A model generated the notes under the pieces. The model did no database searches. It was not told the origin of the DNA and worked only from the letters and a program-made list of their open reading frames with translations. A DNA stretch of 64,000 bases. Origin: Antedon mediterranea (Eukaryota; Animalia; Echinodermata). The position numbers and the translations under genes are program-made. Shown one piece after another: positions 3,707 to 28,900 of the stretch (the first letter of the stretch is position 1; each line of letters starts with the position of its first letter). The stretch lies in contig NC_092680.1 of assembly GCF_964355755.1 (NCBI RefSeq), positions 11,284,001 to 11,348,000 on the forward strand, written 5' to 3'.

Positions 3707-3740
3707 TGATCTCTAATGTTAAAGCCAAATACGATCCACG

Positions 3741-5058: not shown

Positions 5059-5570
5059 CACTGTTAAAAAAATTCTTATAAAAAAACTGTAAATTACTGG
5101 CAATCTGGACGCCAGTAATTTACCGTAATGTAGAATTACAGGTACTGTTGAAAATAAATTACTGTAAAACTACAGTAAATTATTGTTGGTCATAAAGTCG
5201 GTTGTCTACCGTAATGTAGAATCACAGGTACTGTTGAAAATAAATTACGGTAAAACTACAAATTACTGTTAACTTGAAAGTCGGATGTCAACTATAACGT
5301 AAAATCACAGGTACCGTTTCTAATAAATTACTACAGTATAATTACTGTTAATCTGAAAGTCTGTTAATGTCAACAATAACGTAAAATCACGGGTACCATA
5401 AAACTACGTAAAATTACTGTCGATTTCAAAGGAAGTGGTCTACCATTAATGTAGAATAATGTTGATAAATAACTGTAAAACTACATTAAAATTACTGTCG
5501 ATTTCAATGGTCAATGATAATGTAAAATCACAGGTACCGTTATTAATAAATTACTGCAAAAGATTCAGTG
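5059..5570 (+). mobile_element. CACTG-ended (EnSpm/CACTA-like) non-autonomous element fragment with ~80-86-bp internal tandem repeats
   Basis: Begins CACTGTTAAAAAAA. TACCGTAATGTAGAAT at 5121 and 5207 is followed by ~4 more diverged units. No matching right TIR was found. Confidence 0.6.
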
Positions 5571-5669
5571 AATTCCAACCAAACAAAATATTACAAAAAT
5601 ATAAATACCATACAAACAAAATAAATACATGCCAATAATCTTATTTCATGCCTTATATTAAAATGACCA

Positions 5670-5900
5670 TCAAATAAATGGAAGGTTTATTCCAGAGTAC
5701 ATGACCTGGATGTGGTAGATGGACACTTAACAGTAAACCACAGTAAGAATGTTGTTGATCCAATAACAGGAGTCCACACTCAAAACATAGAATCCTACTG
5801 GAATCGTGAAAAATTAAAGTTAAAAAGAATAGGTGTAAACGGGAATGGTTACCGGAATACCTTGACGAATTTATGTGGCGAGAAAGATATGGCATAATAT
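5670..5900 (+). pseudogene. Merlin transposase C-terminal fragment (frameshifted)
   Basis: Reads SNKWKVY...HLTVNHSKNVVDPITGVHTQNIESYW, then after a 1-nt shift REWLPEYLDEFMWRERYG. These are the SD.W..Y, VNHS, HTQ.IES.W and YL.EF.WR motifs of IS1595/Merlin DDE transposases. The second catalytic D appears as N. Confidence 0.9.
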
Positions 5901-7629
5901 AAATTAAACAGATTAAGTAAGTTAAAATAGTATATGTTCCTTGTGCCTTATTAAATAATGTTAAAGTCTTGTGCCTTATATTTGAATAAAGTTTGAAGAA
6001 TGTATCTTTCGATCTAACGATTTTTTTCTTGTCGTTTGTAGAGGCTATTTGCAACTGTTGAGAAAAAACCAAACATGGATGTATTTATATAAATTAAAAC
6101 ATAAATTGGATATTTTATATAAATTAAAACATAAATTAAATAAGATTAAAATGTATATGAATCTTTTTCTTGATCTTTTCTTGTTATTTGTAGAGGCTAC
6201 TTGATTTAACTGTTGAGTAAAAAAACATGTTAGGGCCTATAGGCTACTTTATATAGTGTAAAATACGATATAATTTACAGACACATAATAAAAGCTATAG
6301 GCTAACTACAGCAGCAGTTTTTTGTTTGTTTTTATCAAACACAGTGAAATACAAAACAATTGGCACAATGACACGAACAATAGAAGCCTCAACAAGCCTG
6401 GCACACCCAACCCAACATATTGACTAACACCCCTATAAATAATAATGGAATAGTCCTATATTCAAATACATGCCGAAAACTCGGGTTGATCCCTGATTTA
6501 ACCTAAAGCCATAGAAATGTAAACTAAAATATGCGTAGTGCATGAATATAGAGTAACAGTAACATTTTTAGTTTTTAATCTTTCTCAGTTTACTTTTAAT
6601 AATGCTTTGTTTTTTTACGTTTTGTTTTATATTTGAAGATATCAAATTTGTCAGTGGTTTGTCATGACAAATTATACTTTTTAAATATTTTTTTAATGGT
6701 TTTTATGTATATTTTTTTAAAAATATAATTATGTTTATTTACTCTTGTTGCACATCTCCCTCATTGAGACTGTGCCTCTGATAAAGAGATAAAAAAAATT
6801 CATAACATAATTAACTGTACGCCACATTAAATCTTAAAAAAAAAGTTTATATAAACTTTAGATTCTATCATCAAAACACTTCCCCTATTATGATCAAATC
6901 ATCTTTCATGTAAACTTGGCCTATTTTTCAGAAATGAATATCCTTATAGTAATACGATGAGTGGTAAGTTCAGAGCTTGGGATTTTTTTAGGAAACAATG
7001 AGTTTGAAAGAATCCCAATTTGATTGGTCAAAATTATCGCTACTTATACGTCCGCTATAGATGGCGCTTTTTTTCATACAGATAACTACATAAACAGAAC
7101 ACAATTGTTAAAGAATAATTAATAATATTAAAGAACCAATTCTTTTAATTATTCCTTGTATAAAAATTGTCCCCATGTATGGCAAGATATTCCTAATTTT
7201 ATCGTATATCATCTTTAATTGTCTGTACACACGAACCATGTTATCTGTATATTTAAATGATTGTTCACACAATTTATTATATCTTATGTATTTTTATTGT
7301 TTTACTAAGTTTTATGATTGAAATGCAGTATAGATAACCAATTCGATAGTGCTTAGCACTCAAGAAAGGAAATTCCCAGGTTGCTTTGTTGCGTTGTTTG
7401 ACTGCGTGAAAATTTAATAAAATAATTCTGTTCGATCCTTTTCCTTCATCTATATGGCTTGTGTTTTTGTAATTTCTGTGTGCATGCTATACATGTTGGC
7501 TTCGTCTATGAATTTGTTACCGATTGGCTATTTCCTTTGATTGTTAATGCGTTGGTGGTTGGTTACAATCAGGCCTGCATATTATTTTTCAAAATTATAA
7601 CATTTTAAATTTTGTTGTAAATTGATGCT

Positions 7630-7829: not shown

Positions 7830-8330
7830 ATAAATCCAAATTACTGAAAGAAGACAATGCTGTGGGTATCAGTGTGGCTGGGGGTATCAGCGGCTTGATC
7901 TTAATAAAGATACAAAATAATATAAACAAAAAGCTAAATCTAAACGATACAATTTAAACAACTAGACAAAATTAGCAGAGCTTTCGGGCAAAACTAGCCC
8001 TTCATCAGTGTGTAGAAATCAAGCGCTGCCTGAGTGGACTGGAATAAAAGAAATAAAACAAAAGAGGCATAATGCTGGTGAAAAGAGTGAGATTAGAAAA
8101 CAATAAAGATAGCTTGGTATATATAAACAATTTAGAAATTGAATTAAAAATCAACTCAAATGGTGGTTAATATTGAAACATTAAATTTAGGTAGTCGATG
8201 GAATAATTTTACCGATCTGGGAATATGTTCCTAATGTTAAGTCAAAATATTTCGTGGTTTTAAGTAGTAATTCCAAGTGGTTTTCATGGTCTGCCCTGTC
8301 GTGAAAGAACGTCGCAATTGACACATTTTA
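7830..8330 (-). mobile_element. Decayed Penelope-like element 3' end / pseudo-LTR
   Basis: Contains a type I minimal hammerhead motif. It is homologous in reverse orientation to 13510-13800 and in direct orientation to 2055-2170. Confidence 0.6.
7975..8012 (-). ncRNA. Minimal type I hammerhead ribozyme motif (Penelope type)
   Basis: The minus strand reads CA-CTGATGA-A-GGGC-TAGTTTT-GCCC-GAAA-GC-TC-TG. Both core boxes are intact, with a 4-bp stem II, an AGCT palindrome in place of stem III and a short stem I. Confidence 0.8.
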
Positions 8331-8912: not shown

Positions 8913-10780
8913 TTAGTAAATCAGGAAAGGTATGGATGATTTGTATAATGATATTGTTTGTGCTCTATCTAGTGCCTCCAAAATGTGTTTTAAAAATAAG
9001 AAAATAAAAAATGGGACCCACATTCCAGGGTGGAATGAAAATGTCGCAGAATGCCATAATGTGGCTAGAGAATCATTCCTTCTATGGGTTAATAATGGAA
9101 AGCCTAAATCTGGTTCATTATTTGAGGCGATGCGTTTTAAATGACAAGATCTCAATTTAAAATGAGTTTACGCTAGTGTAAATCAGAAGAAGAACAGCAT
9201 AGGGCTGATTCTATGGTTAAGTCTTTATTAAACAAGGCCAACAGCCATTAAGTCGCGTGCTACAATGCATAGTGATACCGGACCGACAGACAAACAGACC
9301 GACAGACAGACGGACCGACCGACATAGTGAACTATACTGACCGAAATTACTGAACATGTTTACAAATGTTGAAATGTTTAAAAACATTTATATTTTTTTA
9401 ATTTACACGTGCGTAGCCTGTCACTTTTGACGTGCTCGTATAACGTAATTTCGAGTTGAAAAGTAAGTCAAGAAAACAGAAATCGGGCAAAAAGAGTGCG
9501 CAATAACATTTAACGCGCAGTGCGCGCACAAAAATTTGCGCACTCATGGCAATTTTGTAAACGCTTAAAATTTCTTGAAACGTACGTCTCTTATTTCATC
9601 GAAAATAAATTTTGAAAATTTTAAGCGCGCGTACGCATGCGTTACATGCACTACGCACGTAATTGTATTGCCATATGATGATTTATGCCCTGAAATTTAT
9701 GAGTACCAAATTTTATTTAATTGTGATTTATGGTTGTTAAGATATGATTACAAACGTGATTTCGTTAAATCGTGCGTAGACCGCGTACTTTTTTATTGCG
9801 CACCGTGAAAACATAACCACATCGATTCCTGGCCATAAGGAATATTCTGTGAAAAATTGACTTAGCTAGATTAAACTGATATCAAGATAAGGTCATAAAG
9901 CGATAAAACGCATAGTGATACCGGACCGACAGACAGACCGACAGACAGACCGACAGACAGACCGACCGACCGACATAGTGAACTATAGAGTCGCTTCCAC
10001 GCGACTAAAAATGATTATGCTGATTTGTGGAAAAGGTTTATAAGTCTAAATCATGTACTCCTGTTCTTACTTCTTCTTTCTTGGAAATTTAAGAAATACT
10101 TACAGAATCTTTGGATAATGTTAATGGTGAATATGATAATTATAAGTAACCACTGGGCAGCTCATTTTGAGGAGCTGTTTAATTGTGTTCATAATGATAG
10201 TAATAAGGATTATGTTCACAGTATACTTGTTAATTGTAATGATGATTGTGGTTGTGAGGTAAATGTCCAACAGGTAGCGGGCATTATTAAAGATTTATCT
10301 AGTGATAAATTGTTCCGATTTTAAAATCTAAATCAGGTGATATTACGAGTAAAAGCAATTAGGCCTATAGCTTTAGCTAGTGTGGTATCTAAGGTACTAG
10401 AATTTGTATTAATTAAATTGTCCGGAGATAGCCTTAAGTCATCTGACCATCAGTTTGCGTTTAAATCGGGTCACTCCACAGATACATGTATATTAATCTT
10501 AAAACAAGTTGTTGCATTTTATAGTCGGCAAAATAGCCCTGTATATGCTTGCTTTCTTGATGCCTCTAAGGCATATGACAGATTAAATAACTGGACTCTT
10601 TTTTTAAAAATTGTTAAACAGAAAGATGCCAACCGCAATTGTAAAATTGTTATCGTGTTGGTACTCACAGCAACAGTTTTGTATTAAATGGGGAAGATCT
10701 ATCTCCCGATAGTTCTATGTAAGAAACGGAGTGCGACAGGGTGGAATCATGTATCCGTTACTGTATAATGTTTACATTTC
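8913..10780 (+). mobile_element. Degenerate LINE ORF2 fragment (CR1/L2 group, Daphne/Crack-like), interrupted at 9231-10009
   Basis: Reads IPGWNENV...ARESFLLWVNNGKP, then RPIALASVVSKVLE...QFAFKSGHST...CFLDASKAYDRL, then GVRQGGIMYPLLYNVYI. There are several stops and frameshifts, and it is truncated before the YADD motif. Confidence 0.9.
9231..10009 (-). mobile_element. DINE-1/HINE-like non-autonomous Helentron element
   Basis: The minus strand starts TTTAGTCGCGT (subTIR), then a short inverted copy GCGACT and a (GTCK)n microsatellite. It ends ACGCGACTTA plus a GGC-TGTTG-GCC hairpin plus TTGTT. It is inserted in an A/T run with no TSD. Removing it restores the LINE frame KSLL|NDYADLWKR. Confidence 0.85.
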
Positions 10781-11200: not shown

Positions 11201-13499
11201 ACGTTCAAATTACTAATATAATGTTCAGATACTTTAGTCTAATACCACCTCAGCCCGACCATGGGGTTGGTTAGAGCATTTTTTAGGAATATGGACATAG
11301 CTTAGATTGCTAGCAATTCCACTATTAACTCTTGATAATATCACAGATAAGTTTAAAGTTTTAAAAAAACGCTGATTATAGTTTCAAGCAATAAATAGAT
11401 AGGACTGGACATGCCCTCTAGAGTAAAACTAGGTAAAACTATAGGAATCCATCCCAAAAACGTATTGGATTTGTTTCCGTTTAAAAAACTTTTCATTTAC
11501 AATAATTTTTAGTTCATACATTAAATGCCAAGGAAAACTAAATTTAGCAATATTATTTGTTTAGGGGTGCAAATAAAAGTGAAAACTATAGACAAGATGT
11601 AAAGTAGTCTAATGTACCGTTTCTTCGATAATCTTAATTTTACCTATACCTATACTTTTATTCAGACATTCCGGATTTTTAATCCTCTCAAAAATAATGT
11701 TAGCTAAAAGTAAGAGTGCATTGCCTGGTCTATATTCCTGAAAAAAGTTTTGTCGTCTCTCGATTTTATGATGCTGTGTCCGATTCTATAAATACGTTTT
11801 ATATTAACACTGGCAGCATTTATCTATATTAACGAACACATGCCTTTTTACTTTCCGTACTTTTGAACCTTCTGAACATAGTCTGGTTATACTGAGATTG
11901 TTTATCTAATTGAATTCGTATCATATATTACGTAATATTAGGATATATTGCTAAAAATCAAGAAGTAAATAATTGTTCGGGTTGAGTGCTATAGGATAGA
12001 ATTACAGTTATGAAAAATGTAACGAACAATACACTTTAGAAGTTGTTTGAATCCCATCTAGTCTACACACTTTAAACTATTTTAATTTGATCGTAAATAC
12101 CTATATTCGTGTCATTGATATTACACGATTGCGACATGAATTTTCATCAAAGTATCATACATTAAAAGTGATGCTGGTGATTGTAAATGAAAGCTCTTTT
12201 AAATGGCAACCATATACCATACGTTTCTTATAGACCTAATCCGTTAGAAAATTAAAATACTTTTAAAACTTTTAATTTGCATCTCCTATTTAGGCATCAA
12301 AACTTATTGTGTGTTGTCCCTTAGATGGAAACCAGGCAATCTAGCACCAAAATAATTTCGTAATTATATACTGTAGGCCTAGTGTATATATTAATAAAAA
12401 TCACTCGAATAATTACAATACAAGTTATTGCCTATTCCCTATCGAAGTTCAAAGTTCTTCTGTATGACTAAGATACAGTCACTAAAGGCAATATTGTATG
12501 TATGTTAACTATTAAATACAAGCCCGTACTTCATCATTCAACATAATTAATAATTTCGCCATGCAAACTTCGAAGTGTTTTTTTGTATACTTTACTAAGT
12601 ACTTTCCATGTATTTTAAATAGTCAATTAAGCTAAGAATATAGAGCACCGTGTTTTTTATAGGTTCAGCTTTTAAATGTGTCTCGTTGTGTGCTTTGCAT
12701 CTGTTTAAAAAAAAATCGTCACATTTGTCTTAGCTTTCGGAGTCAAAAATCTCGAATGACTTTTATGTCGGTCGAACAAATTTATTATGATGAACTCGTA
12801 TGTTGATTCTCTCTCTCGGACAACATCTTTATAAAACTGGCTAATCGTATCTCAGCGGTATCAGGTCGGCTGTCTTCGTTTTGCTTCTAGATATCGCATT
12901 AAGCTATTAGTAGGCCTACCTGATATAACCGAGCTATCAAAAAGCGAACTTCAATCACAGAGGTGACTTATTTGTCCCAAATTTAGTTGAGAATGTTTTA
13001 AGGCCTAAACGAATTATTATTACAAAATTTAGTGGGCCTATATTATAAAGTGATTAGTTTAATGAAATTAATAACAAAGACTCGAATTAAAAAGTACAGT
13101 ATAATTAATCATGCACGTTTAAAACAAATTATTATATTAGCCTATATTTTAATGCCAACACTTTTCCAATACGTGCTTAAATTGGCTTTGCTTGTTGCTT
13201 CATAGAAAATCATAACCAATTAATTGTCTAACCAAAAATGTCATTTATCTCATACACTGTAATATTTGTAGTGAGTGGTAGAAACCAAAACACTCTCCGT
13301 ATGAGAATGACACAGAGATCAGCTATAAAAAACATTAAAGTTTTTCTGTAACCGAAATGTTATTTCAACCTACTTGCAGAAATCGCACAGGACTTTTAAT
13401 GTAGTCCTGTTGCTTTCAAAAGTCATGTCGCAATCGTTTAATATCTTATATCAATGACACGAACATATTAGGTTGTCAAATGGAGCGACAAAACTCGCA

Positions 13500-16400
13500 A
13501 AGACAAAAAAACACTTGGAATTACTACTTAAAGCCACAAAACTGTTTGATCTTAACATTAACATACTCCCAGATCAGTAAAATTATTCCATCGACTACCT
13601 AAGTTTAAGGTTCAATATTAACCACCATTTGAGTTGCTTTTTTTTAGATACAATCCTAATTGTTTATATCTACCAAGCTATCTTCATTGTTTTTAGCTTG
13701 TGCCTTGATCCTTTGTTTTTATTTCTTTATTCCAGTCCACTCAGGCAGTGCTTGTTTGCTTCATATTCTCAATTTTGTTCTTTCACTTATAAAGGGCTAG
13801 TGGATTTATATTTAAATGTTTTTTAATTTTCTGTTTTTTAACTCACATAATGTCTAAAAGATCGCAATAATAATGAAGCTTTTGAAATGGATGTAAAATA
13901 TTCATATTCTCAATTTTGTAAAAGCACTTCCACTGATATAGTATATTATCCTATTAATTAAATATGACAAGTTGTACAGGTAGTTTCAGTTTTTATTTTC
14001 TATTGTTTTTGTATATATTTTTTTTAAAGTAATTGTGTTGCTTAAATCATGGAGGTATAAACATATTTTGATATGCTTAAATGTTGTATGTGTGCCACTG
14101 TTAAATATGTGTTGCTCCAAATAAATATTATTATATTATTATTACAAGGTACAGTATTCATTTCTGAAAATTATATACATAAAAGATGATTTGATCATAC
14201 AGGAAATTGTTTGAAGATAGAATTTAAAGTTTAGATTTAACTTGTTTTAAAGATTTAATGTGGCTATACTTTGATATATTATAAACGAATTTAACAAAAC
14301 TCTTTGAAATTTATAATTCTATTGAGCCTATATGCGTGGTACGGTCACTGTTACTCTTTATTCATTGATTTAAAATTCAGGTTAGACTTTTAATTAGAAA
14401 GAAATAAACACACCAGGGTTAAAAGGGTTAAATGATCCATAATTAAGCGATATATCTACACTGTGAGACACAAAATGCTTTCATAAAATTACACATTTAT
14501 ACCTTTGCTTAATAATAATATTTTATAATAATTCATTTTAACGGCACTACGCCTACATGATGATCATGGGTAGCTAATGGCATGGGGCTCCGACCCTGTA
14601 TGCCACTTTTGGAAGTGTTTATATTGATGTTGCAAACAATTTCATTATCAAAATTTATATGTAGAAGACAAAACTGATTAATTAGTGTGCATGATGCATA
14701 TAAGAAGTAATTACTGAAAACTATCATTGTAGTACATTTTTTATAGTATTAGTAGTACTTTATAGTATAAAGGGTGTATAAAGTTGTGCCTTTTTCAAGC
14801 ATGATTTGAGTGATAGTTGTTTTTGGGGTTGGCAATTATTGCGACAAAATTGTAATGTCCTTGACGTTATTAATGCCTAATTTCCGTGACAGAGATAAAC
14901 CCTTATATCAATAACATATCATTGGGATTTTTTTTTATCTAATGTGATATAAAGGGATAATCGCAGAAACAGCACAGAACTCCGAATTCCTAAAAATGCT
15001 CTAAACATTAGTCCCAATCATAGTCGAGCTGACGTGGGTTTGGACTTCCAAATATACACAACCTTAAATTACCACTAAATTTCAAAAACGTTGCGCCGGT
15101 TCTGAATATTATATCTAATCTGAATGATATAGGCCTAAATGAATAATACTGATACTTGCAGAAACCGCAAAGAACGTTCAATGTATTGCATTCAAAAGAC
15201 ATGTCACATTCGTGTAATATCTTATATCAATGACACGAACATATTAGGTTGTCAAAAGACAAAAAAAACTTGGAATTACTACTTAAAGCCACAAAACTGT
15301 TTGATCTTAACATTAACATACTCCCAGATCATTAAAATTATTCCATCGACTACCTAAGTTTAAGGTTCAATATTAACCACCATTTGAGTTGCTTTTTTTT
15401 AGATGCAATCCTAATTGTTTATATCTACCAAGCTATCTTCATTGTTTTCAGCTTGTGCCTTGATCCTTTGTTTTTATTTCTTTATTCCAGTCCACTCAGG
15501 CAGTGCTTGTTTGCTTCATATTCTCAATTTTGTTCTTTCACTTATAAAGGGCTAGTGGATTTATATTTAAATGTTTTTTTAATTTTCTGTTTTTTAACTC
15601 ACATAATGTCTAAAAGATCGCAATAATAATGAAGCTTTTGAAATGGATGTAAAATATTCATATTCTCAATTTTGTAAAAGCACTTCCACTGATATAGTAT
15701 ATTATCCTATTAATTAAATATGACAAGTTGTACAGGTAGTTTCAGTTTTTATTTTCTATTGTTTCTGTATATTTTTTTTTAAAGTAATTGTGTTGCTTAA
15801 ATCATGGAGGTATAAACATATTTTGATATGCTTAAATGTTGTATGTGTGCCACTGTTAAATATGTGTTGCTCCAAATAAATATTATTATATTATTATTAC
15901 AAGGTACAGTATTCATTTCTGAAAATTATATACATAAAAGATGATTTGATCATACAGGAAATTGTTTGAAGATAGAATTTAACGTTTAGATTTAACTTGT
16001 TTTAAAGATTTAATGTGGCTATACTTTGATATATTATAAACGAATTTAACAAAACTCTTTGAAATTTATAATTCTATTGAGCCTATATGCGTGGTACGGT
16101 CACTGTTACTCTTTATTCATTGATTTAAAATTTAGGTTAGACTTTTAATTAGAAAGAAATAAACACACCAGGGTTAAAAGGGTTAAATGATCCATAATTA
16201 AGCGATATATCTACACTGTGAGACACAAAATGCTTTCATAAAATTACACATTTATACCTTTGCTTAATAATAATATTTTATAATAATTCATTTTAACGGC
16301 ACTACGCCTACATGATGATCATGGGTAGCTAATGGCATGAGGCTCCGACCCTGTATGCCACTTTTGGAAGTGTTTATATTGATGTTGCAAACAATTTCAT

Positions 16401-19208
16401 TATCAAAATTTATATGTAGAAGACAAAACTGATTAATTAGTGTGCATGATGCATATAAGAAGTAATTACTGAAAACTATCATTGTAGTACATTTTTTATA
16501 GTATTAGTAGTACTTTATAGTATAAAGGGTGTATAAAGTTGTGCCTTTTTCAAGCATGATTTGAGTGATAGTTGTTTTTGGGGTTGGCAATTATTGCGAC
16601 AAAATTGTAATGTCCTTGACGTTATTAATGCTTAATTTCCGTGACAGAGATAAACCCTTATATCAATAACATATCATTGGGGTTTTTTTTTATCTAATGT
16701 GATATAAAGGGATAATCGCAGAAACAGCACAGAACTCCGAATTCCTAAAAATGCTCTAAACATTAGTCCCAATCATAGTCGAGCTGACGTGGGTTTGGAC
16801 TTCCAAATATACACAACCTTAAATTACCACTAAATTTCAAAAACGTTGCGCCGGTTCTGAATATTATATCTAATCTGAATGATATAGGCCTAAATGAATA
16901 ATACTGATACTTGCAGAAACCGCAAAGAACGTTCAATGTATTGCATTCAAAAGACATGTCACATTCGTGTAATATCTTATATCAATGACACGAACATATT
17001 AGGTTGTCAAAAGACAAAAAAAACTTGGAATTACTACTTAAAGCCACAAAACTGTTTGATCTTAACATTAACATACTCCCAGATCAGTAAAATTATTCCA
17101 TCGACTACCTAAGTTTAAGGTTCAATATTAACCACCATTTGAGTTGCTTTTTTTTAGATGCAATCCTAATTGTTTATATCTACCAAGCTATCTTCATTGT
17201 TTTCAGCTTGTGCCTTGATCCTTTGTTTTTATTTCTTTATTCCAGTCCACTCAGGCAGTGCTTGTTTGCTTCATATTCTCAATTTTGTTCTTTCACTTAT
17301 AAAGGGCTAGTGGATTTATATTTAAATGTTTTTTTAATTTTCTGTTTTTTAACTCACATAATGTCTAAAAGATCGCAATAATAATGAAGCTTTTGAAATG
17401 GATGTAAAATATTCATATTCTCAATTTTGTAAAAGCACTTCCACTGATATAGTATATTATCCTATTAATTAAATATGACAAGTTGTACAGGTAGTTTCAG
17501 TTTTTATTTTCTATTGTTTTTGTATATTTTTTTTAAAAAGTAATTGTGTTGCTTAAATCATGGAGGTATAAACATATTTTGATATGCTTAAATGTTGTAT
17601 GTGTGCCACTGTTAAATATGTGTTGCTCCAAATAAATATTATTATATTATTATTACAAGGTACAGTATTCATTTCTGAAAATTATATACATAAAAGATGA
17701 TTTGATCATACAGGAAATTGTTTGAAGATAGAATTTAAAGTTTAGATTTAACTTGTTTTAAAGATTTAATGTGGCTATACTTTGATATATTATAAACGAA
17801 TTTAACAAAACTCTTTGAAATTTATAATTCTATTGAGCCTATATGCGTGGTACGGTCACTGTTACTCTTTATTCATTGATTTAAAATTCAGGTTAGACTT
17901 TTAATTAGAAAGAAATAAACACACCAGGGTTAAAAGGGTTAAATGATCCATAATTAAGCGATATATCTACACTGTGAGACACAAAATGCTTTCATAAAAT
18001 TACACATTTATACCTTTGCTTAATAATAATATTTTATAATAATTCATTTTAACGGCACTACGCCTACATGATGATCATGGGTAGCTAATGGCATGGGGCT
18101 CCGACCCTGTATGCCACTTTTGGAAGTGTTTATATTGATGTTGCAAACAATTTCATTATCAAAATTTATATGTAGAAGACAAAACTGATTAATTAGTGTG
18201 CATGATGCATATAAGAAGTAATTACTGAAAACTATCATTGTAGTACATTTTTTATAGTATTAGTAGTACTTTATAGTATAAAGGGTGTATAAAGTTGTGC
18301 CTTTTTCAAGCATGATTTGAGTGATAGTTGTTTTTGGGGTTGGCAATTATTGCGACAAAATTGTAATGTCCTTGACGTTATTAATGCCTAATTTCCGTGA
18401 CAGAGATAAACCCTTATATCAATAACATATCATTGGGGTTTTTTTTTTATCTAATGTGATATAAAGGGATAATCGCAGAAACAGCACAGAACTCCGAATT
18501 CCTAAAAATGCTCTAAACATTAGTCCCAATCATAGTCGAGCTGACGTGGGTTTGGACTTCCAAATATACACAACCTTAAATTACCACTAAATTTCAAAAA
18601 CGTTGCGCCGGTTCTGAATATTATATCTAATCTGAATGATATAGGCCTAAATGAATAATACTGATACTTGCAGAAACCGCAAAGAACGTTCAATGTATTG
18701 CATTCAAAAGACATGTCACATTCGTGTAATATCTTATATCAATGACACGAACATATTAGGTTGTCAAAAGACAAAAAAAACTTGGAATTACTACTTAAAG
18801 CCACAAAACTGTTTGATCTTAACATTAACATACTCCCAGATCAGTAAAATTATTCCATCGACTACCTAAGTTTAAGGTTCAATATTAACCACCATTTGAG
18901 TTGCTTTTTTTTAGATGCAATCCTAATTGTTTATATCTACCAAGCTATCTTCATTGTTTTCAGCTTGTGCCTTGATCCTTTGTTTTTATTTCTTTATTCC
19001 AGTCCACTCAGGCAGTGCTTGTTTGCTTCATATTCTCAATTTTGTTCTTTCACTTATAAAGGGCTAGTGGATTTATATTTAAATGTTTTTTTAATTTTCT
19101 GTTTTTTAACTCACATAATGTCTAAAAGATCGCAATAATAATGAAGCTTTTGAAATGGATGTAAAATATTCATATTCTCAATTTTGTAAAAGCACTTTCA
19201 CTGATATA
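13500..19208. repeat. Tandem array of ~1755-1757-bp units, ~3.2 copies, ~99% identical by eye
   Basis: Identical ORFs recur at 13629/15384/17139/18896 and 14533/16288/18044. Differences are limited to a few SNPs and homopolymer lengths. Confidence 0.97.
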
Positions 19209-20380
19209 GGGCTAGTGTTGCCCATATATTATCCTAATTAAATACGATTTAATGTGGCTTTACTTTTATATATTATAATAATATTTTATAATTATTCATT
19301 TTAACGGCACTTTGATAAAACAATGTTATATATCATACTATTGCACCTTTATTCATGGGGTGACCTACTATAACCTTACACTATTATGGAAGAAAAGAAA
19401 AAAAAAAACAAATAAGAATTGTGAAAGTTAACCCAATGTATCACGGGTGTGACTTGGGTACACAATTGAAAAATTCATTATATAATAATATCATGTGCAT
19501 GCAAAAACAAAATTGTATTATTAAATGTGCATATCATTTATTTGTCCAATATAATTTTATATATTAGTTTAATTTATTTTTCTAACGCCTAGTTTGACAG
19601 GCCAACTTTGAAATTGAAATAATCTTTTCGTTCGACACAATATTTCAGAGATACGTGAACATTTGATGATGGTCTATCCGATATGACTTTGTTTTTTTGT
19701 ACATAAAAAGTGGACAATTTTGGTTTAGATCAATGAATGCTTAAAATTGTTTTTATTTTGTGCTATATTTTTCAAGTTGATATCTGGAATACTATCAACG
19801 CTTTTATCTTATAATACACGATATATTCATATTTTTTTACAAGAAAATAAAGTATTGATCACTAGCTTGTTTTTATGTATTTAATAACTATTCTAAGTTC
19901 ATTTTAAATAGGCGTATGTTTATATTTTAATGATTCATGGTAAACAATTATAAACAGCTTCAATATTACACAGTAGGTTATTCAAAAGAGACGCACAATT
20001 TATACGGACGTGTTTTTAACGACAAAATTGACCAATCAAAATGGAAATAGTCAAAATACAATAATTTTATGTTCATTGGCTACCCCACCAACAACCTAAA
20101 CTTCAAATAATAAAACATCTCTGTAATACTGTATTTAAAAAAAAGCATATTTGCAACCGAAATTTCTTATTTTATAAATATAATATAAATTTACAATTAT
20201 ACAAAACAATATACAACTGCTTATAAAAAAGGAATTTAATTAAAGAATTTTAATTTAGTTAAAATATCAGGATTTCTTACTTCAATTTGATGTTTCCTTT
20301 AGAGGCACTAAACTTTTGAATATATGATTTATTTATTTTTTGTTATTATGTTATGTGCAAATAAAGTATTTACATAGTTG

Positions 20381-20401
20381 ATATATATATATATATATAT
20401 T
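20381..20401. repeat. (AT)n microsatellite
   Basis: About 10 AT units. Confidence 0.9.
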
Positions 20402-20768
20402 ATGCAGTGTAGCATAGGTGAAATTACGGGAGCCCAATATGAATTAGTTTGAAATGGTAAAAATTATTTTACTACAGTATAAGTAGATTAAAATATATAA
20501 GTTAATCTATGAAAATGATTATATATTACTGGCAGATTTTATCGATCTCTATCGTGCAAATAATACTCGTTATCGATATGAAATACGATTTGCACTTGAG
20601 TTTTTCTTCCTGCTGATCTGTAGCTTTAGTATAAACAATGTGAACAATGCCCAAACAGGGAGTTGACTAATAACTCCCTGGCCCAAATAAAAGATCGTAA
20701 CAGTGTGAAAGTGCGTCACTCGTCGCCCAACATTGTTTGTGATCACTTCGTTATCGCATTTGATAAAA

Positions 20769-23700
20769 ATGGACTGGAGGTTTTGTGTAGAGGAAGACAA
20801 CATTGCTTATCTAATAATTAATAACACTAGGGCAATAAAGCATTCTGATGGTGAACAGTTAGGCAAGGTTATAAAATTTACCAAAACAACTAAAGGCAAA
20901 AACTGGCTTAAGGTAAGATTGTTGTGTTCTTCTAAATAATATAATTTTATTTTAATGTTTTTAGGGAACCATTCTTCACCAGTCTTATTACTTTATAAAG
21001 ATGTTTTATTTTCCATTTTGCAGTTTTAAAAAGTGTTTCAAGCCACGCAATTATTAGTTTTATTAGTATTTTCCCAGGGGCACAATCTTCAGCTGTTTAA
21101 TAGGCCTATTATATTTGGATTTTATAGGCTTTCTGATTATAATATATATTATGATTTATTCGATTATTTATTTCATCTAATTAATTGGAATGTTGTTTCA
21201 GGCCTAAAACTAAATTGTAATATATCTTTACTATAGGACCATTGATACTAATTTTGTTGACCATTTTTTTAACATTAAAGTTTTATATATGATTTAAAAA
21301 ATGCATTTTCATCAAGAGCACCAACACTGAATATTAGGGTGTAGTGTGTACACTTAACAACTATATAAATTTCTATGTTTAGTAGTACGCTTGCTGCAAC
21401 CAAAGTATTGTGGAGCAAATTCAAACCGGACGAAAATTGCCCATTTTGCAAATGCAAGACAATTGACGACCTTACCAAAACATTGCAAACATTACGAAAG
21501 CGAAAAGCTCAAGATGCTGAAAACGTAACTACAAAGAGAACAAGAATTAACATAAAGACAATTGACGAAACAATCAAAGAAAAGATCATTGGTTAGTATA
21601 TGAAACATTTGTTATTGAAGTTACATACTGTACCATGCCCCATGGACAAGCATAATTATTATCTGCTTTTGTTTTACTGTAGTTTACAATTAAACAAACG
21701 TTACTGTTTTATATTTTTTCAAATGTTTTGTTGAATATGTCACATAATAGCTATTCACTTTGATCTTGGATAACAAAAACTGTAATTTTAAACATAACTC
21801 ACAATAACTATAGGCCTAACCATGATTAGATTTAATGTATCTACAATTCGTTACGTTAAATTAGTATAATCTGGCTAGATAAGTAATTATACGTACTAGG
21901 CCTATTAAAATATAAAGCGGATGAACACATTTTTCGAAGATGAACGAACTAAAGATATTTTGAACACAGGTTTTAACTTCTTATAGTTACTCTATTTTCT
22001 ATTTGTTTTATTGTTATTTAAGTTTCAAACAGTTATTATAAAACGCATAAATAGATTCCGGTCATTCGATTGGACAATTTTCTTTCACATGACTACTACT
22101 AGCCTTGCAAACCCAGACCTAGCCCGGATGCTAACATACACTAGGCCTAACCTTCCTAGATATTGTGCAAAATACCTATATAAATTCAAAATTAACTAAA
22201 ATATAAAAAATAACATGTGCAGGGTGATCTCCATGCACTCAAGCAGGCAGGGGGTGATGATGTCCTGACACTACCTAGGCCTAGACTAAACGGCCTATAC
22301 TGTATGGCAACGTTAAATTTTTAGGATATATATTGTTAATAAAATAAAACTAATATTAAAATATAATTTCAATCATTTTTTGTAATTCATATAATTTAAT
22401 AATGTATCCTTTTTCTGAAAATGTCCAACTTTGTATGTAAAACAATTTTTAAAAATGTTTTTTACTGATGTCGCAACTTGCAATTACTGTGGAATTCCCC
22501 ATTTTAGTGAAAAATAAAATTGGTTTATTAAATATGAAAATCCTATCATAATAATAATACAATGACATATTTATATTAAGTTGTTTCATTATTCAATAAT
22601 ATTCAAACTGTTTTTAGAGATTATATATATTATTTTATAATTCTACCCATTCTAACTGACCCCCCGAAGCCTGACACATGCAATTTTTGCATAACACAGT
22701 AACATTGAGACTGCACTGGTTTTGTTACTGGTTTTGTTACTGTTGTTATTCTTATTATATTATTTTTTCTATGCTTTTTTTTTGTAGAAATGTGAAAAAG
22801 AAATGCTGATTTCTGATGTCATCGTAGTTGTTTGCAATGACGAGGACCTGCTATACAATATGACTATTTTAAAAGACAACGATAGAGTCATGCAAGTACA
22901 GTATTGGTACTGCGAAGAACAAGGTATACCCAGTTTGTTATTGTATTTACAAATATAGTTCAGTCATTTTTATTCAATTATAAATATAGGTCAATCATTG
23001 ATTGGCAGTCTACTAAAAAATTCACCAATTTGCAATACTAACTGCTTTTTGGTATGAGGTGGATGGTGGGGTAATGGGGTTATTTCTTCTTGTGTCTAAT
23101 AAAAGAAAAAAAAAAGAAATGTACCATTGATATTATTATTATTATATTCAAATATACAGGAAAGTTAATGTAAGTATGTAGGCCTACAGTTTAATGATGA
23201 TTCATATTTTTTTTAGACACCATTCGCACGTTATTAGTAAGCCCTCAACACGAACGCATGATGAATGGAATTGGTGGCGTCATTAAGGCTAAGTCACTAG
23301 AACTGCTAATTAAGCAACTAGTGACAAGGCATAGCAGAGAAGGTCACTTAGTTGTAAATTGCCTAGGATGGAATGGTAAATAATACATTTATACCATAAC
23401 TCATAATAATCATTCATTGATGTTAACCAAAAACATATCGCGTGACAATTGGGCATGTCGCTAAAATCCAATCAAATGGGAAAAATTCTTGTTCTTTGAG
23501 TCATTACTATTGTCGTTTGTACAAACGACATTAATGAACTAACAAACTAATTTAATATTCAATTGAAATCTATTTTATTGTTATTATAATTACAGTGTTC
23601 AAGGAAATAATTTTGCAACGGCGCAATTGTATAACCTTGCTCGAGAATGATGGAGAATCTGAATTAAGATCCAGATTAGTTCGTTTCAAAGAAGAAATTG

Positions 23701-24261
23701 AAAACAGCATTCAGCTTGAAAATGGAGCCCAATCAGATGGTAAGTTTAAGTTAAATTAACTTTATTGTTTATCTATTGTCATGGATGCTAATACGAAGAA
23801 CAATATACAAGCGATATTGTATACATTCAAGTCGCAATACAATGCTGATGATTTGATGTTTGTAGTGCAATATACTGCTACTTTTTGTTCAGGAATTTTA
23901 AAACGGCATATTAAGCTGTATTCTCATAACTTGGACGGCATACTATGCTATCTGTATTGTAAACTTGTATAAACACAGCCCATGCATTTAATTTTTAATC
24001 AATATTCAAAATACCCATAATCAATTTCTGACCCAATTTGAAACATATAGTAATACAAATTTAAAAAAAAACAAGATTCTCTATTTTAAAATTTTGTTTA
24101 CACAGAGCTTCTAAAAAAATGATACAACTATTTAGAGGTCTATTAAATAATAGGGCCTTGGTTTATTCATCATTTCAGATGAGGACGACAGTACAGATGA
24201 GGAGGTTGAAAATAATGCGGAGATGGCAAATGAGGAGGACGACTACACATTTCCGGGGTGA
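20769..24261 (+). pseudogene. Spliced gene, probably decayed, encoding a beta-class DNA amino-methyltransferase (N6_N4_Mtase)-like protein with an acidic tail
   Basis: Predicted exons: 20769-20912, ~20965-20981(?), 21383-21591, ~22641-22698, 22788-22923, 23217-23375, 23596-23739, 24179-24261. The last four join by canonical, phase-compatible GT-AG introns. Motifs occur in beta order: ILTDPPK; LISDVIVVVCND...QYW...LLVS; KSLELLIKQLVTRHSREGHLVVNCLGWN; RRNCITLLE. Apparent lesions are a lost acceptor at ~22640, a 1-nt deletion at ~22677 and a weak exon-2 donor. Confidence 0.65.
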
Positions 24262-24407
24262 AAATAGCATTCATGATACTGGACACATGCCTTGCAGTCA
24301 CATTTTATATAACTTTTCAAATTAATTTATTAAATTTATTCTGTGCCTTGTGATGTTTATATATATACTGTATATACAATTGAGAGACTAGTACTGTTCC
24401 GCCGTAC

Positions 24408-24540
24408 TACGACAGTGGTCTAATGGTCATCTGCATATCAAGCAGAATGTTCCGGGTTCGGATCTTGGATTGGGCATTCTCACTGATTTCCTCATCTTTA
24501 TCGTTTAAAATTAAATAATTAAATTTCACTGGGCGGTTTA
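24408..24540 (+). mobile_element. tRNA-derived SINE head (degenerate)
   Basis: An A-box-like TGGTCTAATGG (24416-24426) and a B-box-like GGTTCGGATC (~24455-24464) lie at tRNA-like spacing. No full cloverleaf forms. Confidence 0.6.
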
Positions 24541-24839
24541 GAATTATTCTGTGCCTGTGAAATGTATATATCTTTTAAATATTTTCTACTACAATCACGT
24601 ATAAATAGTTAGTAATGCATACAATACTTATTTTACTAGAAGCCGAGTTTAATTCTTTCTAAATTAATAACCAGTGTTAGTGAATAAATAGTTAAAATTT
24701 ATCAGTTCTTTAATTCTTTGATGTAAGGCTGAGAAAAAACATGAGTGTATTCATGTTTTGTCATTAATAAAAAGCTTGTATAGCACACTAAAACTTTGTC
24801 TACTAATTATTTTTACAGAGAAATTCTTGTATTTCTGAA

Positions 24840-25225
24840 GTCATAAATTTTATGACCTAATGGCAGCTTCACAATCATGTCATAAATATTATGACTTATG
24901 TAAAAATAGTCAATACCTTGAAGCCCGGAAATCACAGCCTCATGTACTATAACCAGCGTATTCCGAGACATAACATGTAGTTTTAAATTGTCATAAATTT
25001 TATGACCTAATGACTGCTAAATTAATGTCATAAATATTATGACTTATGTGAAAATAGTCAATACTGTACCAGGAAGCCCCGAAATTAGTGCTTCCTGTAC
25101 TATACACTATAACTAGCGTATTCCGAGACTTAACATGTACCTTTAAATTGTCATAAATGTTATGACCTAATGACTGCTAAATTAATGTCATAAATATTAT
25201 GACTTATGTGAAAATAGTCAATAGG
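24840..25225. repeat. 150-160-bp tandem repeat (~2.5 copies) carrying six 17-bp palindromes GTCATAA-nnn-TTATGAC
   Basis: Palindromes start at ~24840, 24879, 24990, 25027, 25150 and 25187. Confidence 0.9.
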
Positions 25226-25983
25226 CAGCTACCATGTCGATCGAATAATACACGCTGTTATCTGCTGTATATAGCCCATAACTTTATAACTTTTTTGTTG
25301 AATCTAATATATTATTACCGAGTATAAGGTGGTTAGGAGCTAATAATACTAAGCTTTAGAGCTGAGTGGAAATGGGCCGCTACTACTAGTAATTACACCA
25401 AAGTGTTTTGTGTATGATAATCGAAGTGCAGCTAGCTCTGCCAACAAATGCATGGATTAATACATTCATTTATAAAAATAGTTTTTAACACTCAGCTAGC
25501 TTTTATCTCATTATCATAAATGAAAACAAAAAAGAATTGCCTTTTTCAACTACAAATAAAAACATATCATCCAAACTAATACACAGAAAAAAGAAACAAT
25601 TATTCAATCAATATTATAGTTTATCGTTAAAGTAAGTTGATATATTTATGTTTCATTATACATTGTATTAAACTAGTTAATGTCGATGTATACATTTATA
25701 TAAAACAAGGTTTTGTTTATTAATTTCTCAGCGTTACTAAAATCAAAATATAAAACAAAACAAATTATACGGCAAGTTTATGCAAATAAAAATAATTATA
25801 AGAGGAAATGTTTGTTATCGCTAAATTGTAGTATTTTGATAATATTGAAATCGATAAAAATCAAAATATGCATATTTTACGATTTTGTATACATTTTAGC
25901 TATGAATGGCCAAAATTAAAGTAAAGGTCGATTTTGTTGAATCTACACAGACGTATAATGTTTGTACTGAAAATAAAACGTGT

Positions 25984-28900
25984 TGTAACCAAGTTTCATC
26001 GAAAATCACAAAATGGTCTAAAACGTCTCAAAATGCGATTTGAAGCTTTTCTAAGCACTTTGGTGTTTTTATGTTAACAAGTTTTTTCGAAAATCACGAA
26101 ATGGTCTAAAATGTCTCCAAATGCGATTTGAAGATATTCTGAGCACTTTGGTGTTTTTATGTTAAAAAGTTTTTTCGAAAATCACAAAATGGTCTAAAAC
26201 GTCTCCAAATGCGATTTGAAGCTCTTCTGTACACTTTGATGTTTTGTGTGAAAAAGTTTTGTCGAAATGCTCAAAATGGTCTAAAACGTTTTTAAATACG
26301 ATATTAAGCTGTTTTGTGCACTTTGATGATTTGTGTGAAAAGTTTTAACGAAATGCTCAAAATGGTCTAAAACGGTTTCTAATGTGATTTTAAGCACTTT
26401 GATGTTTTTGTGTAACCAAGTTTTTTCGAAAATCACAAAATAGTCTAAAACGTCTCCAAATGCGATTTGAAGCTTTTCTAAGCACTTTGGTGTTTTTATG
26501 TTAACAAGTTTTTTCGAAAATCACAAAATGGTCTAAAACGTCTCCAAATGCGATTTGAGGATATTCTGAGCACTTTGGTGTTTTTTTGTTAAAAAGTTTT
26601 TTCGAAAATCACAAAATGGTCTAAAACGTCTCCAAATGCGATTTGAAGCTATTCTGTACACTTTGATGTTTTGTGTGAAAAAGTTTTGTCGAAATGCTCA
26701 AAATGGTCTAAAACGTTTTTAAATACGATATTAAGCTATTTTGTGATCTTTGATGTTTTTGTGTGAAAAGTTTTATCGAAATGCTCAAAATGGTCTAAAA
26801 CTGTTTCTATTGTGATTTTGAGCACTTTGATGATTTTGTGTAACCAAGTTTCATCGAAATGTACAAAATGGTCTAAAACGTCTCCAAATGCGATTTGAAG
26901 CTATTCTAAGTACTTTTGTGTTTTTATGTTAACAAGTTTTTTCGAAAATCACAAAATGGTCTAAAACGTCTCAAAATGCGATTTGAAGCTATTCTGTACA
27001 CTTTGATGTTTTGTGTGAAAAAGTTTTGTCGAAATGCTCAAAATGGTCTAAAACGTTTTTAAAACGATATTAAGCTATTTTGTGCTCTTTGATGTTTTTG
27101 TGTAACCAAGTTTCATCGAAATCAACAAAATGGTCTAATACGTCTCCAAATGCGATTTGAAGCTTTTCCAAGCTTTTTGCTGTTTTTATGTTAAGTTTTT
27201 TCGAAAATCACAAAATGGTCTAAAACGTCTTCAAATGCGATTTGAAGCTATTCTGTACACTTTTATGTTTTGTGTGAAAAAGTTTTGTCGAAATTCTCAA
27301 AATGGTCTAAAACGTTTTTAAATACGATATTAAGCTGTTTTGTGCACTTTGATGATTTGTGTGAAAAGTTTTAACGAAATGCTCAAAATGGTCTAAAACG
27401 GTTTCTAATGTGATTTTAAGCACTTTGATGTTTTTGTAAAACCAAGTTTTTTCGAAAATCACAAAATAGTCTAAAACGTCTCCAAATGCGATTTGAAGCT
27501 TTTCTAAGCACTTTGGTGTTTTTATGTTAACAAGTTTTTTCGAAAATCACAAAATGGTCTAAAACGTCTCCAAATGCGATTTGAGGATATTCTGAGCACT
27601 TTGGTGTTTTTTTGTTAAAAAGTTTTTTCGAAAATAACAAAATGGTCTAAAACGTCTCCAAATGCGATTTGAAGCTATTCTGTACACTTTGATGTTTTGT
27701 GTGAAAAAGTTTTGTCGAAATGCTCAAAATGGTCTAAAACGTTTTTAAATACGATATTAAGCTATTTTGTGATCTTTGATGTTTTTGTGTGAAAAGTTTT
27801 ATCGAAATGCTCAAAATGGTCTAAAACGGTTTCTATTGTGATTTTAAGCACTTTGATGATTTTGTGTAACCAAGTTTCATCGAAATGTACAAAATGGTCT
27901 AAAACGTCTCCAAATGCGATTTGAAGCTATTCTAAGTACTTTTGTGTTTTTATGTTAACAAGTTTTTTCGAAAATCACAAAATGGTCTAAAACGTCTTCA
28001 AATGCGATTTGAAGCTATTCTGTACACTTTGATGTTTTGTGTGAAAAAGTTTTGTCAAAATGCTCAAAATGGTCTAAAACGTTTTTAAAACGATATTAAG
28101 CTATTTTGTGCTCTTTGATGTTTTTGCGTAACCAAGTTTCATCGAAAATCACAAAATGGTCTAAAACGTCTCCAAATGCGATTTGAAGCTTTTCTAAGCA
28201 CTTTGGTGTTTTTATGTTAACAAGTTTTTTCGAAAATCACAAAATGGTCTAAAACGTCTCCAAATGCGATTTGAAGCTCTTCTGTACACTTTGATGTTCT
28301 GTGTGAAAAAGTTTTGTCGAAATTCTCAAAATGGTCTAAAAGGTTTTTAAATACGATATTAAGCTGTTTTGTGCACTTTGATGATTTGTGTGAAAAGTTT
28401 TAACGAAATGCTCAAAATGGTCTAAAACGGTTTCTAATGCGATTTGAAGCTATTCTGTACACTTTGATGTTTTGTGTGAAAAAGTTTTGTCAAAATGCTC
28501 AAAATGGTCTAAAACGTTTTTAAAACGATATTAAGCTATTTTGTGCTCTTTGATGTTTTTGTGTAACCAAGTTTCATCGAAAATCACAAAATGATCTAAA
28601 ACGTCTCCAAATGCGATTTGAAGCTTTTCTAAGCACTTTGGTGTTTTTATGTTAACAAGTTTTTTCGAAAATCACAAAATGGTCTAAAACGTCTCCAAAT
28701 GCGATTTGAAGCTCTTCTGTACACTTTGATGTTTTGTTTGAAAAAGTTTTGTCGAAATTCTCAAAATGGTCTAAAACGTTTTTAAATACGATATTAAGCT
28801 GTTTTGTGCACTTTGATGATTTGTGTGAAAAGTTTTAACGAAATGCTCAAAATGGTCTAAAACGGTTTCTAATGTGATTTTAAGCACTTTGATGTTTTTG

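What the first reader, a model, noticed from the sequence alone, without database searches (positions are those of the whole stretch)
20769..24261. Intron-containing, bacterial-type beta-class DNA amino-methyltransferase-like gene in an animal genome, next to a satellite array
Seen: splicing reconstructs a protein invisible to the ORF track: MDWRFCVEED...KGKNWLK / ...CPFCKC...LRKRKAQ...TKRTRI...KEKII / LPILTDPPKPD.MQFLHNT / KCEKEMLISDVIVVVCNDEDLLYNMTILKDNDRVMQVQYWYCEEQ / DTIRTLLVS...KAKSLELLIKQLVTRHSREGHLVVNCLGWN / VFKEIILQRRNCITLLENDGESELRSRL... / acidic tail. Established: beta-class N4C/N6A MTases run I.TDPPY, then L..GG.I.V...W..., then KP..L...LI...S..GD.VLDPF.GSG, then GR..IGIE, in exactly this order. 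Such enzymes are rare in animals (bdelloid rotifer N4CMT is the known horizontally acquired case). Inference: this is a eukaryotised member, with introns, NLS-like basic patches, a CxxCxC motif and a novel N-terminal domain. DPPK for DPPY and CLGWN for FxGxG suggest altered or lost catalysis, possibly a DNA-binding pseudo-enzyme. This copy has about 3 lesions, so intact paralogs should be sought.
Basis: partly seen in the sequence, partly recalled or inferred. Interest (0 to 1): 0.85.

Follow-up and report, generated by a model that had tools for sequence, protein, structure and literature searches.

The report
Broken feather-star ParB-pseudomethylase transposon gene
This is a broken copy of a spliced, multi-copy feather-star gene whose full form is predicted to join a bacterial-style ParB DNA-binding part to a DNA-methylase-shaped part that appears to lack its catalytic motif, so it is likely a jumping-gene helper that would grip a nearby row of palindromes rather than methylate DNA, a design so far found in print only for algae.

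Summary
The last three introns are spliced out at GT..AG in a probable RNA run. The last four exons match an Antedon mediterranea RefSeq family at 96-100%, found on five chromosome-scale contigs. The 'DPPK exon' (22641-22698) is intron: transcripts and RefSeq models join a different exon (LHRGLLVLTE) to exon 4, and a related organism breaks the stretch with indels. The window copy has an internal deletion (junction 22589/22598) that removes about 360 codons, including a predicted ParB/Srx-fold domain, and leaves the rest out of frame. The family's C-terminus matches beta-class amino-methyltransferases (PF01555) by predicted structure only (TM 0.70-0.73); sequence tests are null or marginal. 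By eye, motif IV reads LTEKC and motif I NCLGWN, so it is probably inactive. Six perfect 17-bp palindromes lie 0.6-0.9 kb downstream; none is in the satellite. Best reading: a dead derivative of a transposon accessory gene (ParB + pseudo-methylase), like those published for algae. No terminal repeats or transposase were found in the window. The scan has noted this design before on other animal and plant DNA.

The parts
20769..20912 (+). Candidate exon 1 (48 codons, ATG, donor AAG|GTAAGA, phase 0); unverified
   Evidence: Sequence. No RNA joint; an X5 contig covers 20408-21291 unspliced. The one listed difference is synonymous. Phase does not fit exon 2; a possible in-frame acceptor at 20964 after a 52-nt intron is unresolved.
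21383..21591 (+). Exon 2, basic N-terminal region with the KRK patch; directly precedes the ParB-like domain in the Anneissia protein
   Evidence: 59% identity over 66 aa to P0003 residues 50-115, E 1e-16 against the window; P0003 sequence
22589..22598 (.). Junction of an internal deletion (8 filler bases) that removes about 360 codons, including the ParB-like domain and the exon carrying the motif IV position
   Evidence: contigs of X3 and X6 stop at 22589 or start at 22598 and run on in unlike sequence. A 68-nt X3 contig (30 bases on each side) spans the joint at depth 420 against 1110-1167 on the flanks. P0006 residues 46-343 have no match in the window.
22641..22698 (+).
   Evidence: No acceptor, frameshift; unspliced in X5; 6 substitutions and 4 indels in organism B; identical to the window in X3; absent from all 11 proteins fetched
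22788..22923 (+). Exon 4, middle of the predicted methyltransferase fold
   Evidence: RNA joint to exon 5; 4 of 4 differences in organism B and 2 of 2 in X5 are synonymous
23217..23375 (+). Exon 5, with degenerate motifs X (KS for KP) and I (NCLGWN for DPFxGxG)
   Evidence: RNA joints on both sides; alignment to viral beta-class MTases
23596..23739 (+). Exon 6, motif II region (CITLLEND) and last helix
   Evidence: RNA joints on both sides; 48/48 identity to P0006
24179..24261 (+). Exon 7, acidic tail and stop codon
   Evidence: RNA joint; 26/27 identity to P0006
24840..25203 (.). Array of six perfect palindromes GTCATAA-N3-TTATGAC in three pairs within 150-160-bp tandem units; candidate binding sites
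   Evidence: 6 matches, all without mismatch; 0.49 expected at up to 2 mismatches, maximum 3 in 100 shuffles; none elsewhere in the window. Arms invariant while flanks differ. The copies are not independent (tandem repeat).

Best explanation
The window holds an internally deleted, out-of-frame copy of a multi-copy crinoid gene that likely serves as a DNA-transposon accessory gene, and whose full-length product (about 650-670 aa) is predicted to chain a basic N-terminus, a ParB/Srx-fold domain, a helical region, a likely inactive beta-class amino-methyltransferase fold and an acidic tail. Shown: the splicing of exons 4-7, the paralogues, the deletion junction, the frame break (exon 2 joined to exon 4 stops after two codons) and the palindrome array. 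Predicted: both folds. Inferred from two overlapping proteins of two species: the full architecture. Inferred from motifs read by eye: loss of catalysis. Inferred by analogy with algal elements: the intact protein binds the palindrome array of its own element through the ParB half, and uses the dead methylase fold and the acidic tail as a DNA-contacting or chromatin-facing scaffold that keeps the element open to transcription or to a transposase supplied in trans, without adding methyl marks. This copy can at most give short C-terminal fragments from internal ATGs.
For: Ten RefSeq proteins (about nine gene models) in two 90%-identity clusters on five different contigs of 28-41 Mb, each truncated in its own way and none full length. 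A minor X3 contig carries 5 of 5 non-synonymous changes in exon 4, including a stop, as decayed transposon copies do. Deleted and undeleted forms coexist in one run. All 10 structure rows for P0006 295-480 are PF01555 clusters, TM 0.70-0.73 over 163-170 residues, 3 of them ParB_N + PF01555 fusions. Five of 7 structure rows for P0003 105-280 are ParB_N clusters, TM 0.61-0.66, and the nearest clusters by features are mostly mollusc (119 members) and sponge (53) proteins. Purifying selection on exon 4: 4 of 4 synonymous, P 0.001-0.012. Palindrome array. Precedent: the ParB-like + N4C/N6A MTase gene in Ectocarpus Sola1-1, and inverted-repeat arrays beside the ParB gene PAG3 of Bostrychia Plavaka elements.
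Against: No terminal inverted repeat, target duplication or transposase was found in the window (ORFs judged by eye, so a spliced transposase could be missed). Organism B covers all 30 bins of 19200-26000 up to the satellite, which also fits a shared segmental duplication. The MTase fold rests on one source, an Atlas model of moderate quality (whole protein pTM 0.37, pLDDT 0.59). Pfam, PHROGs, NCBIfam and PDB sequence searches gave nothing relevant. A profile of 18 viral MTases scored the domain at -1.0 bits, reached by 207 of 1000 shuffles. The C-terminal half alone, chosen after seeing the data, gave 3.3 bits (25 of 2000 shuffles) and a semi-global score reached by 130 of 300 shuffles. The six palindromes are copies within a tandem repeat, and paired sites of the same word occur in 8 unrelated metagenome loci. 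Binding is untested. No single full-length protein was seen.
Confidence: 0.62

Rival explanations
1. The gene is a host (domesticated) crinoid gene spread by segmental duplication in satellite-adjacent regions; it is no longer part of a mobile element and acts as a chromatin DNA-binding protein.
For: No ends or transposase in the window. The homologous block in organism B reaches the satellite border. Spliced 3' transcripts exist, exon 4 is under purifying selection, and a homologue exists in Anneissia.
Against: None of the ten Antedon models is full length, and they break in different ways. A decayed copy with a stop and an internal-deletion derivative coexist. The palindrome is absent from 38 kb of satellite. 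The known ParB + MTase fusions of eukaryotes are transposon cargo.
Confidence: 0.18
2. The C-terminal domain is not derived from an amino-methyltransferase; the likeness comes from a language-model prediction and a generic alpha/beta pattern, and the gene is a ParB-like transposon protein with an unrelated tail.
For: All sequence-profile tests are null or marginal. My two single-sequence AlphaFold models have pLDDT 35-36 and give no Foldseek match.
Against: 10 of 10 structure rows are PF01555 at TM 0.70-0.73. The best local profile match falls on the motif X-I region. ParB + PF01555 is an established fusion.
Confidence: 0.12
3. Intact copies encode an active, unusual 4mC/6mA methyltransferase that marks the element, the satellite or other repeats, like bdelloid N4CMT.
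For: Predicted fold; selection on exon 4; an acidic residue remains after the strand of motif II.
Against: By eye, motif IV reads LTEKC where viral enzymes have DPPY/SPPY, motif I lacks DPF and the second glycine, and the target-recognition segment is nearly absent. Replacing SPPY abolishes N4CMT activity (PMC8885841). No chromodomain is seen.
Confidence: 0.05

Closest known systems
Accessory gene of Ectocarpus Sola1-1_Ec32 (PMC12477816; passages, reference-list passages and supplement rows seen)
   Same: Spliced eukaryotic gene fusing a ParB-like domain to an N4C/N6A-MTase-type domain; proposed to bind its own element; non-autonomous derivatives without transposase are described in the same paper.
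   Different: Here the host is an animal, the protein is shorter (about 660 against 1104 aa), the catalytic motifs appear lost, the copy is internally deleted, and no transposase or terminal repeat was found.
Plavaka accessory genes PAG2 (PF01555 + SET) and PAG3 (ParB + 2OG oxygenase) of Bostrychia (bioRxiv 10.1101/2025.02.11.637652; passages seen; supplements not seen)
   Same: ParB-like and PF01555-type domains as transposon cargo; tandem arrays of inverted repeats next to the ParB gene.
   Different: There the two domains lie in separate genes with SET and oxygenase partners; here they are in one polypeptide and the methylase appears dead.
Phage and prophage ParB_N + N6_N4_Mtase fusions of ParB-terminase loci (Atlas rows; PMC4738411 section 8 and passages)
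   Same: Same domain order and predicted folds.
   Different: No detectable sequence similarity; introns; a helical insert, a basic N-terminus and an acidic tail; eroded motifs.
Bdelloid N4CMT (PMC8885841; passages seen)
   Same: Beta-class amino-MTase fold in an intron-bearing animal gene.
   Different: N4CMT is an active host enzyme with SPPY and a C-terminal chromodomain, and its paper has no occurrence of 'ParB'. This family lacks SPPY and the chromodomain, has a ParB-like domain and is multi-copy.
VANDAL/VANC anti-silencing system of eudicots (known here only from a passage)
   Same: Possible working principle: a transposon-encoded protein binds repeated motifs of its own element.
   Different: Unrelated protein; activity shown there, untested here.

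Membership tests
Beta-class N4C/N6A DNA methyltransferases (PF01555) | Permuted Rossmann fold with motif order IV ... X-I-II | tested here: met
   Atlas structure search of P0006 295-480: 10 of 10 rows PF01555, TM 0.70-0.73; predicted models on both sides, one source only
Beta-class N4C/N6A DNA methyltransferases (PF01555) | Sequence match to the family profile | tested here: not met
   No Pfam hit at E 10; own profile -1.0 bits, 207 of 1000 shuffles as high; C-terminal half 25 of 2000
Beta-class N4C/N6A DNA methyltransferases (PF01555) | Catalytic motif IV (D/N/S)PP(Y/F/W) after strand 4 | tested here: not met
   The DPPK stretch is intron. No such motif is in P0006; the equivalent position reads LLVLTEKC, placed by eye.
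Beta-class N4C/N6A DNA methyltransferases (PF01555) | SAM-binding motif I (D-x-F-x-G-x-G) | tested here: not met
   Aligned position reads NCLGWN
Beta-class N4C/N6A DNA methyltransferases (PF01555) | Methyl transfer to DNA | not testable with these tools
   Needs a biochemical assay
ParB/Srx superfamily (PF02195) | ParB_N fold | tested here: met
   In the Anneissia homologue, 5 of 7 structure rows are ParB_N clusters, TM 0.61-0.66; no Pfam hit; the domain is deleted from the window copy
ParB/Srx superfamily (PF02195) | Nucleotide-binding GxxR motif (recalled) | tested here: inconclusive
   Reads GGNHLR in both crinoid proteins; CTP binding not tested
ParB + MTase transposon accessory genes (Sola1-1_Ec32 type) | ParB-like and amino-MTase-like domains in one spliced gene | tested here: met
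   P0006 joins the GGNH/RHN part of the ParB-like domain to the MTase-like domain; full length inferred from P0003 + P0006
ParB + MTase transposon accessory genes (Sola1-1_Ec32 type) | Lies inside a DNA transposon (terminal repeats, target duplication, linked transposase) | tested here: inconclusive
   None found in the window; no genome held; dispersed, near-identical, broken copies point to mobility
ParB + MTase transposon accessory genes (Sola1-1_Ec32 type) | Array of inverted repeats near the gene | tested here: met
   Six palindromes at 24840-25203; presence beside other copies not tested
Bdelloid N4CMT | SPPY motif and C-terminal chromodomain | tested here: not met
   Neither is seen in P0006 or the window exons

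The most novel reading that the evidence does not exclude
Animal DNA transposons carry a bacterial partition-type self-recognition system: a ParB-fold protein loads on a parS-like palindrome array of its own element, and a catalytically dead DNA-methylase fold kept under selection, plus an acidic tail, shields the element from host silencing or delivers the transposase. It would be an animal counterpart of plant VANC anti-silencing built from phage parts, spread across crinoids, molluscs and sponges.
Probability: 0.25. Interest if true: 0.75.

Novelty: new variant of a known kind. Interest (0 to 1): 0.42.

Why it matters
It removes a false lead: this is not a second N4CMT-like writer of 4mC or 6mA in an animal, and the DPPK motif is intron. 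What remains is an animal branch of the ParB + methylase transposon accessory genes, which I found in print only for algae (searches; Iyer et al. 2011, cited there for algae, was not read; most subscription papers are not in the library). The methylase fold appears to be kept under purifying selection after loss of its catalytic motifs, which argues for a non-enzymatic job. The gene also comes with a candidate binding site, so self-recognition by a transposon protein can be tested with one gel shift. This copy itself is dead, and the scan has already noted the design in other animals and plants.

Tried and rejected
Own-genome search: no genome held, so copies, ends and neighbours could not be mapped. 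Single exons against Pfam: nothing. Exon 5 against 1.84 billion representatives and the word-indexed database: only P0001. A two-sequence profile found only the two crinoid proteins among 6488 candidates, so the mollusc and sponge look-alikes could not be fetched or aligned. Metagenome and viral contigs: no relative. Phage records with P0008: one match at E 2. AlphaFold without an alignment: pLDDT 35.9 and 34.7; Foldseek on the second model gave nothing; these are uninformative, not negative. Run X9 laid nothing. No listed holder is on record as RNA; X5 is a guess that the GT..AG joints support. The lack of joints for exons 1 and 2 in X5 is not taken as evidence of silence. My own idea that 22690-22745 is a decayed copy of the true LHRGLLVLTE exon was dropped: the letters differ and tblastn finds no trace. 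Zinc-binding CxxCxC: rejected, not conserved. Satellite targeting: no palindrome in the satellite. Terminal repeats: best match between downstream and upstream DNA is a 16-base AT-rich word; only the 25 longest of 90 inverted pairs were shown. Rfam and tRNA scans: nothing. A metagenome scan for paired palindromes gave 8 loci, none with family protein or flanking DNA similarity. PMC12344493 passages were not informative.
Full report
1. What is in the sequence. The region is 28-32% GC and lies 1.7 kb before a satellite array that fills 25990-64000. No whole genome is held, so I tested the gene model with sequencing runs and proteins. Ten runs hold the stretch, none on record as RNA. In X5, which the tool guesses is RNA, contigs skip 293, 220 and 439 bases at GT..AG, exactly the introns between exons 4, 5, 6 and 7; X1, X6 and X10 show none of these joints. 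This is one run of one study. No joint is listed for exons 1, 2 or 3.

2. The family. Exon 5 found one protein, P0001, named by its source as Antedon mediterranea. From it I reached P0002 and an Anneissia japonica protein, P0003, and a cluster of nine members. In all, ten Antedon proteins (about nine gene models) lie on five different contigs of 28-41 Mb. Exons 4-7 match them at 96-100%, so the window is from a feather star of this genus or very close. None of the models is full length: some read into introns, some start at internal ATGs, one locus is split in two. P0003 holds a homologue of exon 2 (59% over 66 aa) followed directly by a domain with GGNH and RHN words that overlaps P0006 at 58% identity. 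Read together, the two proteins imply a full-length product of about 650-670 aa. This is an inference from two species; no single complete protein was seen.

3. The DPPK exon is intron. It has no AG acceptor and needs a frameshift. Every Antedon model that reaches upstream of exon 4 has GLHRGLLVLTE there. An X5 contig carries the same exon as a loose end before 22786, and another X5 contig runs unspliced from 22647 to 22815. X3 matches the window without a difference from 22598 to 22862 at the same depth as the flank that undeleted copies share, so the supposed lesions are the normal sequence. In organism B the 58 bases have 6 substitutions and 4 indels, one removing three bases in the motif; by my sum all 27 gap letters of that contig lie in 22610-22727 and none in exon 4. 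Exon 4 has 4 substitutions, all synonymous, with a chance of 0.001 to 0.012 depending on the mutation model; 2 of 2 in X5 are synonymous too. Of the five exon differences visible in the cut table (278 rows hidden), four are synonymous. Against this, a minor X3 contig has 5 of 5 non-synonymous changes including a stop: a decayed copy.

4. The real lesion. Contigs of X3 and X6 end at 22589 or begin at 22598 and continue in sequence that the window lacks. A 68-nt X3 contig spans the window's joint, with 30 bases on each side (one short of the tool's bar for bridging), at depth 420 against 1110-1167 on the flanks. Depth is no copy number, but both forms exist in that run. P0006 residues 46-343 have no match in the window. 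About 360 codons are gone. Exon 2 ends in phase 1 and exon 4 starts in phase 0, so a direct splice stops after two codons. The eight filler bases resemble the sequence just downstream, as in templated end-joining (inference). Exon 1 has an ATG and a strong donor but a phase that does not fit exon 2; this is unresolved.

5. The folds. For P0006 295-480, all 10 structure rows of the ESM Atlas are PF01555 clusters, TM 0.70-0.73 over 163-170 residues; three are ParB_N fusions. By features the top hits are unnamed clusters at 0.90-0.91, and a cluster with 54% PF01555 comes at rank 14 (0.87, a lead only). For P0003 105-280, five of seven rows are ParB_N clusters (TM 0.61-0.66); the closest clusters are unnamed and mostly mollusc or sponge where taxa are known, then fungal DUF3723. 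Evidence against must be weighed: Pfam, PHROGs, NCBIfam and PDB sequences give nothing relevant. I fetched E. coli YhdJ and viral relatives and built profiles. With 18 segments kept from 52 loci the domain scored -1.0 bits (207 of 1000 shuffles as high), and hhalign gave 18.0 against a shuffle mean of 13.1 and maximum of 22.7. The best local match does fall on the motif X-I region. The C-terminal half (23 segments) gave 3.3 bits, reached by 25 of 2000 shuffles, and a semi-global score reached by 130 of 300. My AlphaFold models without alignment were unusable. So the methylase fold is a prediction from one source. In the alignment KP reads KS, DPFxGxG reads NCLGWN and FIGIE reads CITLLE; by eye the DPPY position reads TEKC, and the target-recognition segment is nearly absent. 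In N4CMT, replacing SPPY abolishes activity (PMC8885841, passages). The domain is therefore very probably inactive.

6. Surroundings. Following a lead from the Bostrychia preprint and earlier scan notes, I looked for palindromes. GTCATAA-N3-TTATGAC occurs six times without mismatch at 24840-25203 and nowhere else in 64 kb at up to two mismatches; shuffles give 0.49. The sites form three pairs in 150-160-bp units; the arms do not vary while flanks and spacer do, but units 2 and 3 are almost identical, so the independent evidence is small. Paired sites of the same word occur in eight unrelated metagenome loci. No terminal repeat brackets the gene and no transposase-like frame was recognised by eye. 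Organism B covers the whole 19200-26000 block. The satellite lacks the palindrome.

7. How it likely works. Shown: splicing of the 3' exons, paralogues, deletion, array. Predicted: ParB and methylase folds. Inferred: the intact gene is cargo of a DNA transposon; its ParB half binds the array; the dead methylase fold and acidic tail act as scaffold to keep the element accessible or to aid a transposase. I give this 0.62, a host gene in a segmental duplication 0.18, a non-methylase tail 0.12 and an active enzyme 0.05.

8. What is known. Ectocarpus Sola1-1_Ec32 carries a 1104-aa ParB-like + N4C/N6A methyltransferase gene, and the authors cite similar proteins in green and red algae (PMC12477816, passages and supplement rows). 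Bostrychia Plavaka elements carry PF01555 + SET and ParB + oxygenase genes with inverted-repeat arrays beside the latter (bioRxiv 10.1101/2025.02.11.637652, passages; its supplements were not seen and may list animal homologues). The survey of eukaryotic adenine methylases lists no animal ParB fusion in the section and passages read (PMC4738411). Nine searches showed no paper on an animal version; I saw listings only for the papers not named here. Earlier scan notes describe the same design in plants and in two other animal windows; these are unchecked AI notes and not support.

9. Verdict. Observation partly confirmed, interpretation partly supported. It is not a member of the active beta-class methylases (motifs IV and I not met). 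It works most likely like the algal ParB-methylase accessory genes, in a disarmed animal form: a new variant of a known kind, represented here by a dead copy. Interest 0.42.

Noticed in passing
window 25990-64000: Satellite array of at least 38 kb with an 88-bp unit and a 427-bp higher-order unit, strongly strand-skewed; possibly centromeric.
   Followed up: partly
window 13400-19210: About 3.3 head-to-tail copies of a 1755-bp unit at 99-100% identity; recent tandem amplification or an assembly effect. Part of the unit has a diverged inverted copy at 8011-8284.
   Followed up: no
window 1624-6465: Element with 169-bp terminal inverted repeats (99%). A frame near 5650-5900 resembles a Merlin/IS1595-type transposase end (recalled motif, not tested). 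A direct repeat of about 1.1 kb (2302 and 3762) around a gag-like frame looks like a nested LTR remnant.
   Followed up: no
window 9989-10780: Decayed reverse-transcriptase remnant, RVT_1 E 7e-7, probably a LINE.
   Followed up: partly
window about 24395-24560: Very high-copy short repeat in all four runs with A-box and B-box-like words (by eye); probably a tRNA-derived SINE, between the stop codon and the palindrome array.
   Followed up: no
window 1002-1350, minus strand: Acidic open frame of about 115 codons ending at a strong GTGAGT donor, probably the first exon of another gene; no Pfam match.
   Followed up: no
P0003 residues 1-40: The Anneissia model starts with a Gypsy-type integrase zinc-finger piece (PF17921), probably a gene-model fusion with a retrotransposon insertion.
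   Followed up: no
ESM Atlas: The crinoid ParB-like domain is close by features (0.94) to fungal DUF3723, recalled as Starship cargo; a search for DUF3723 with ParB found no paper.
   Followed up: partly
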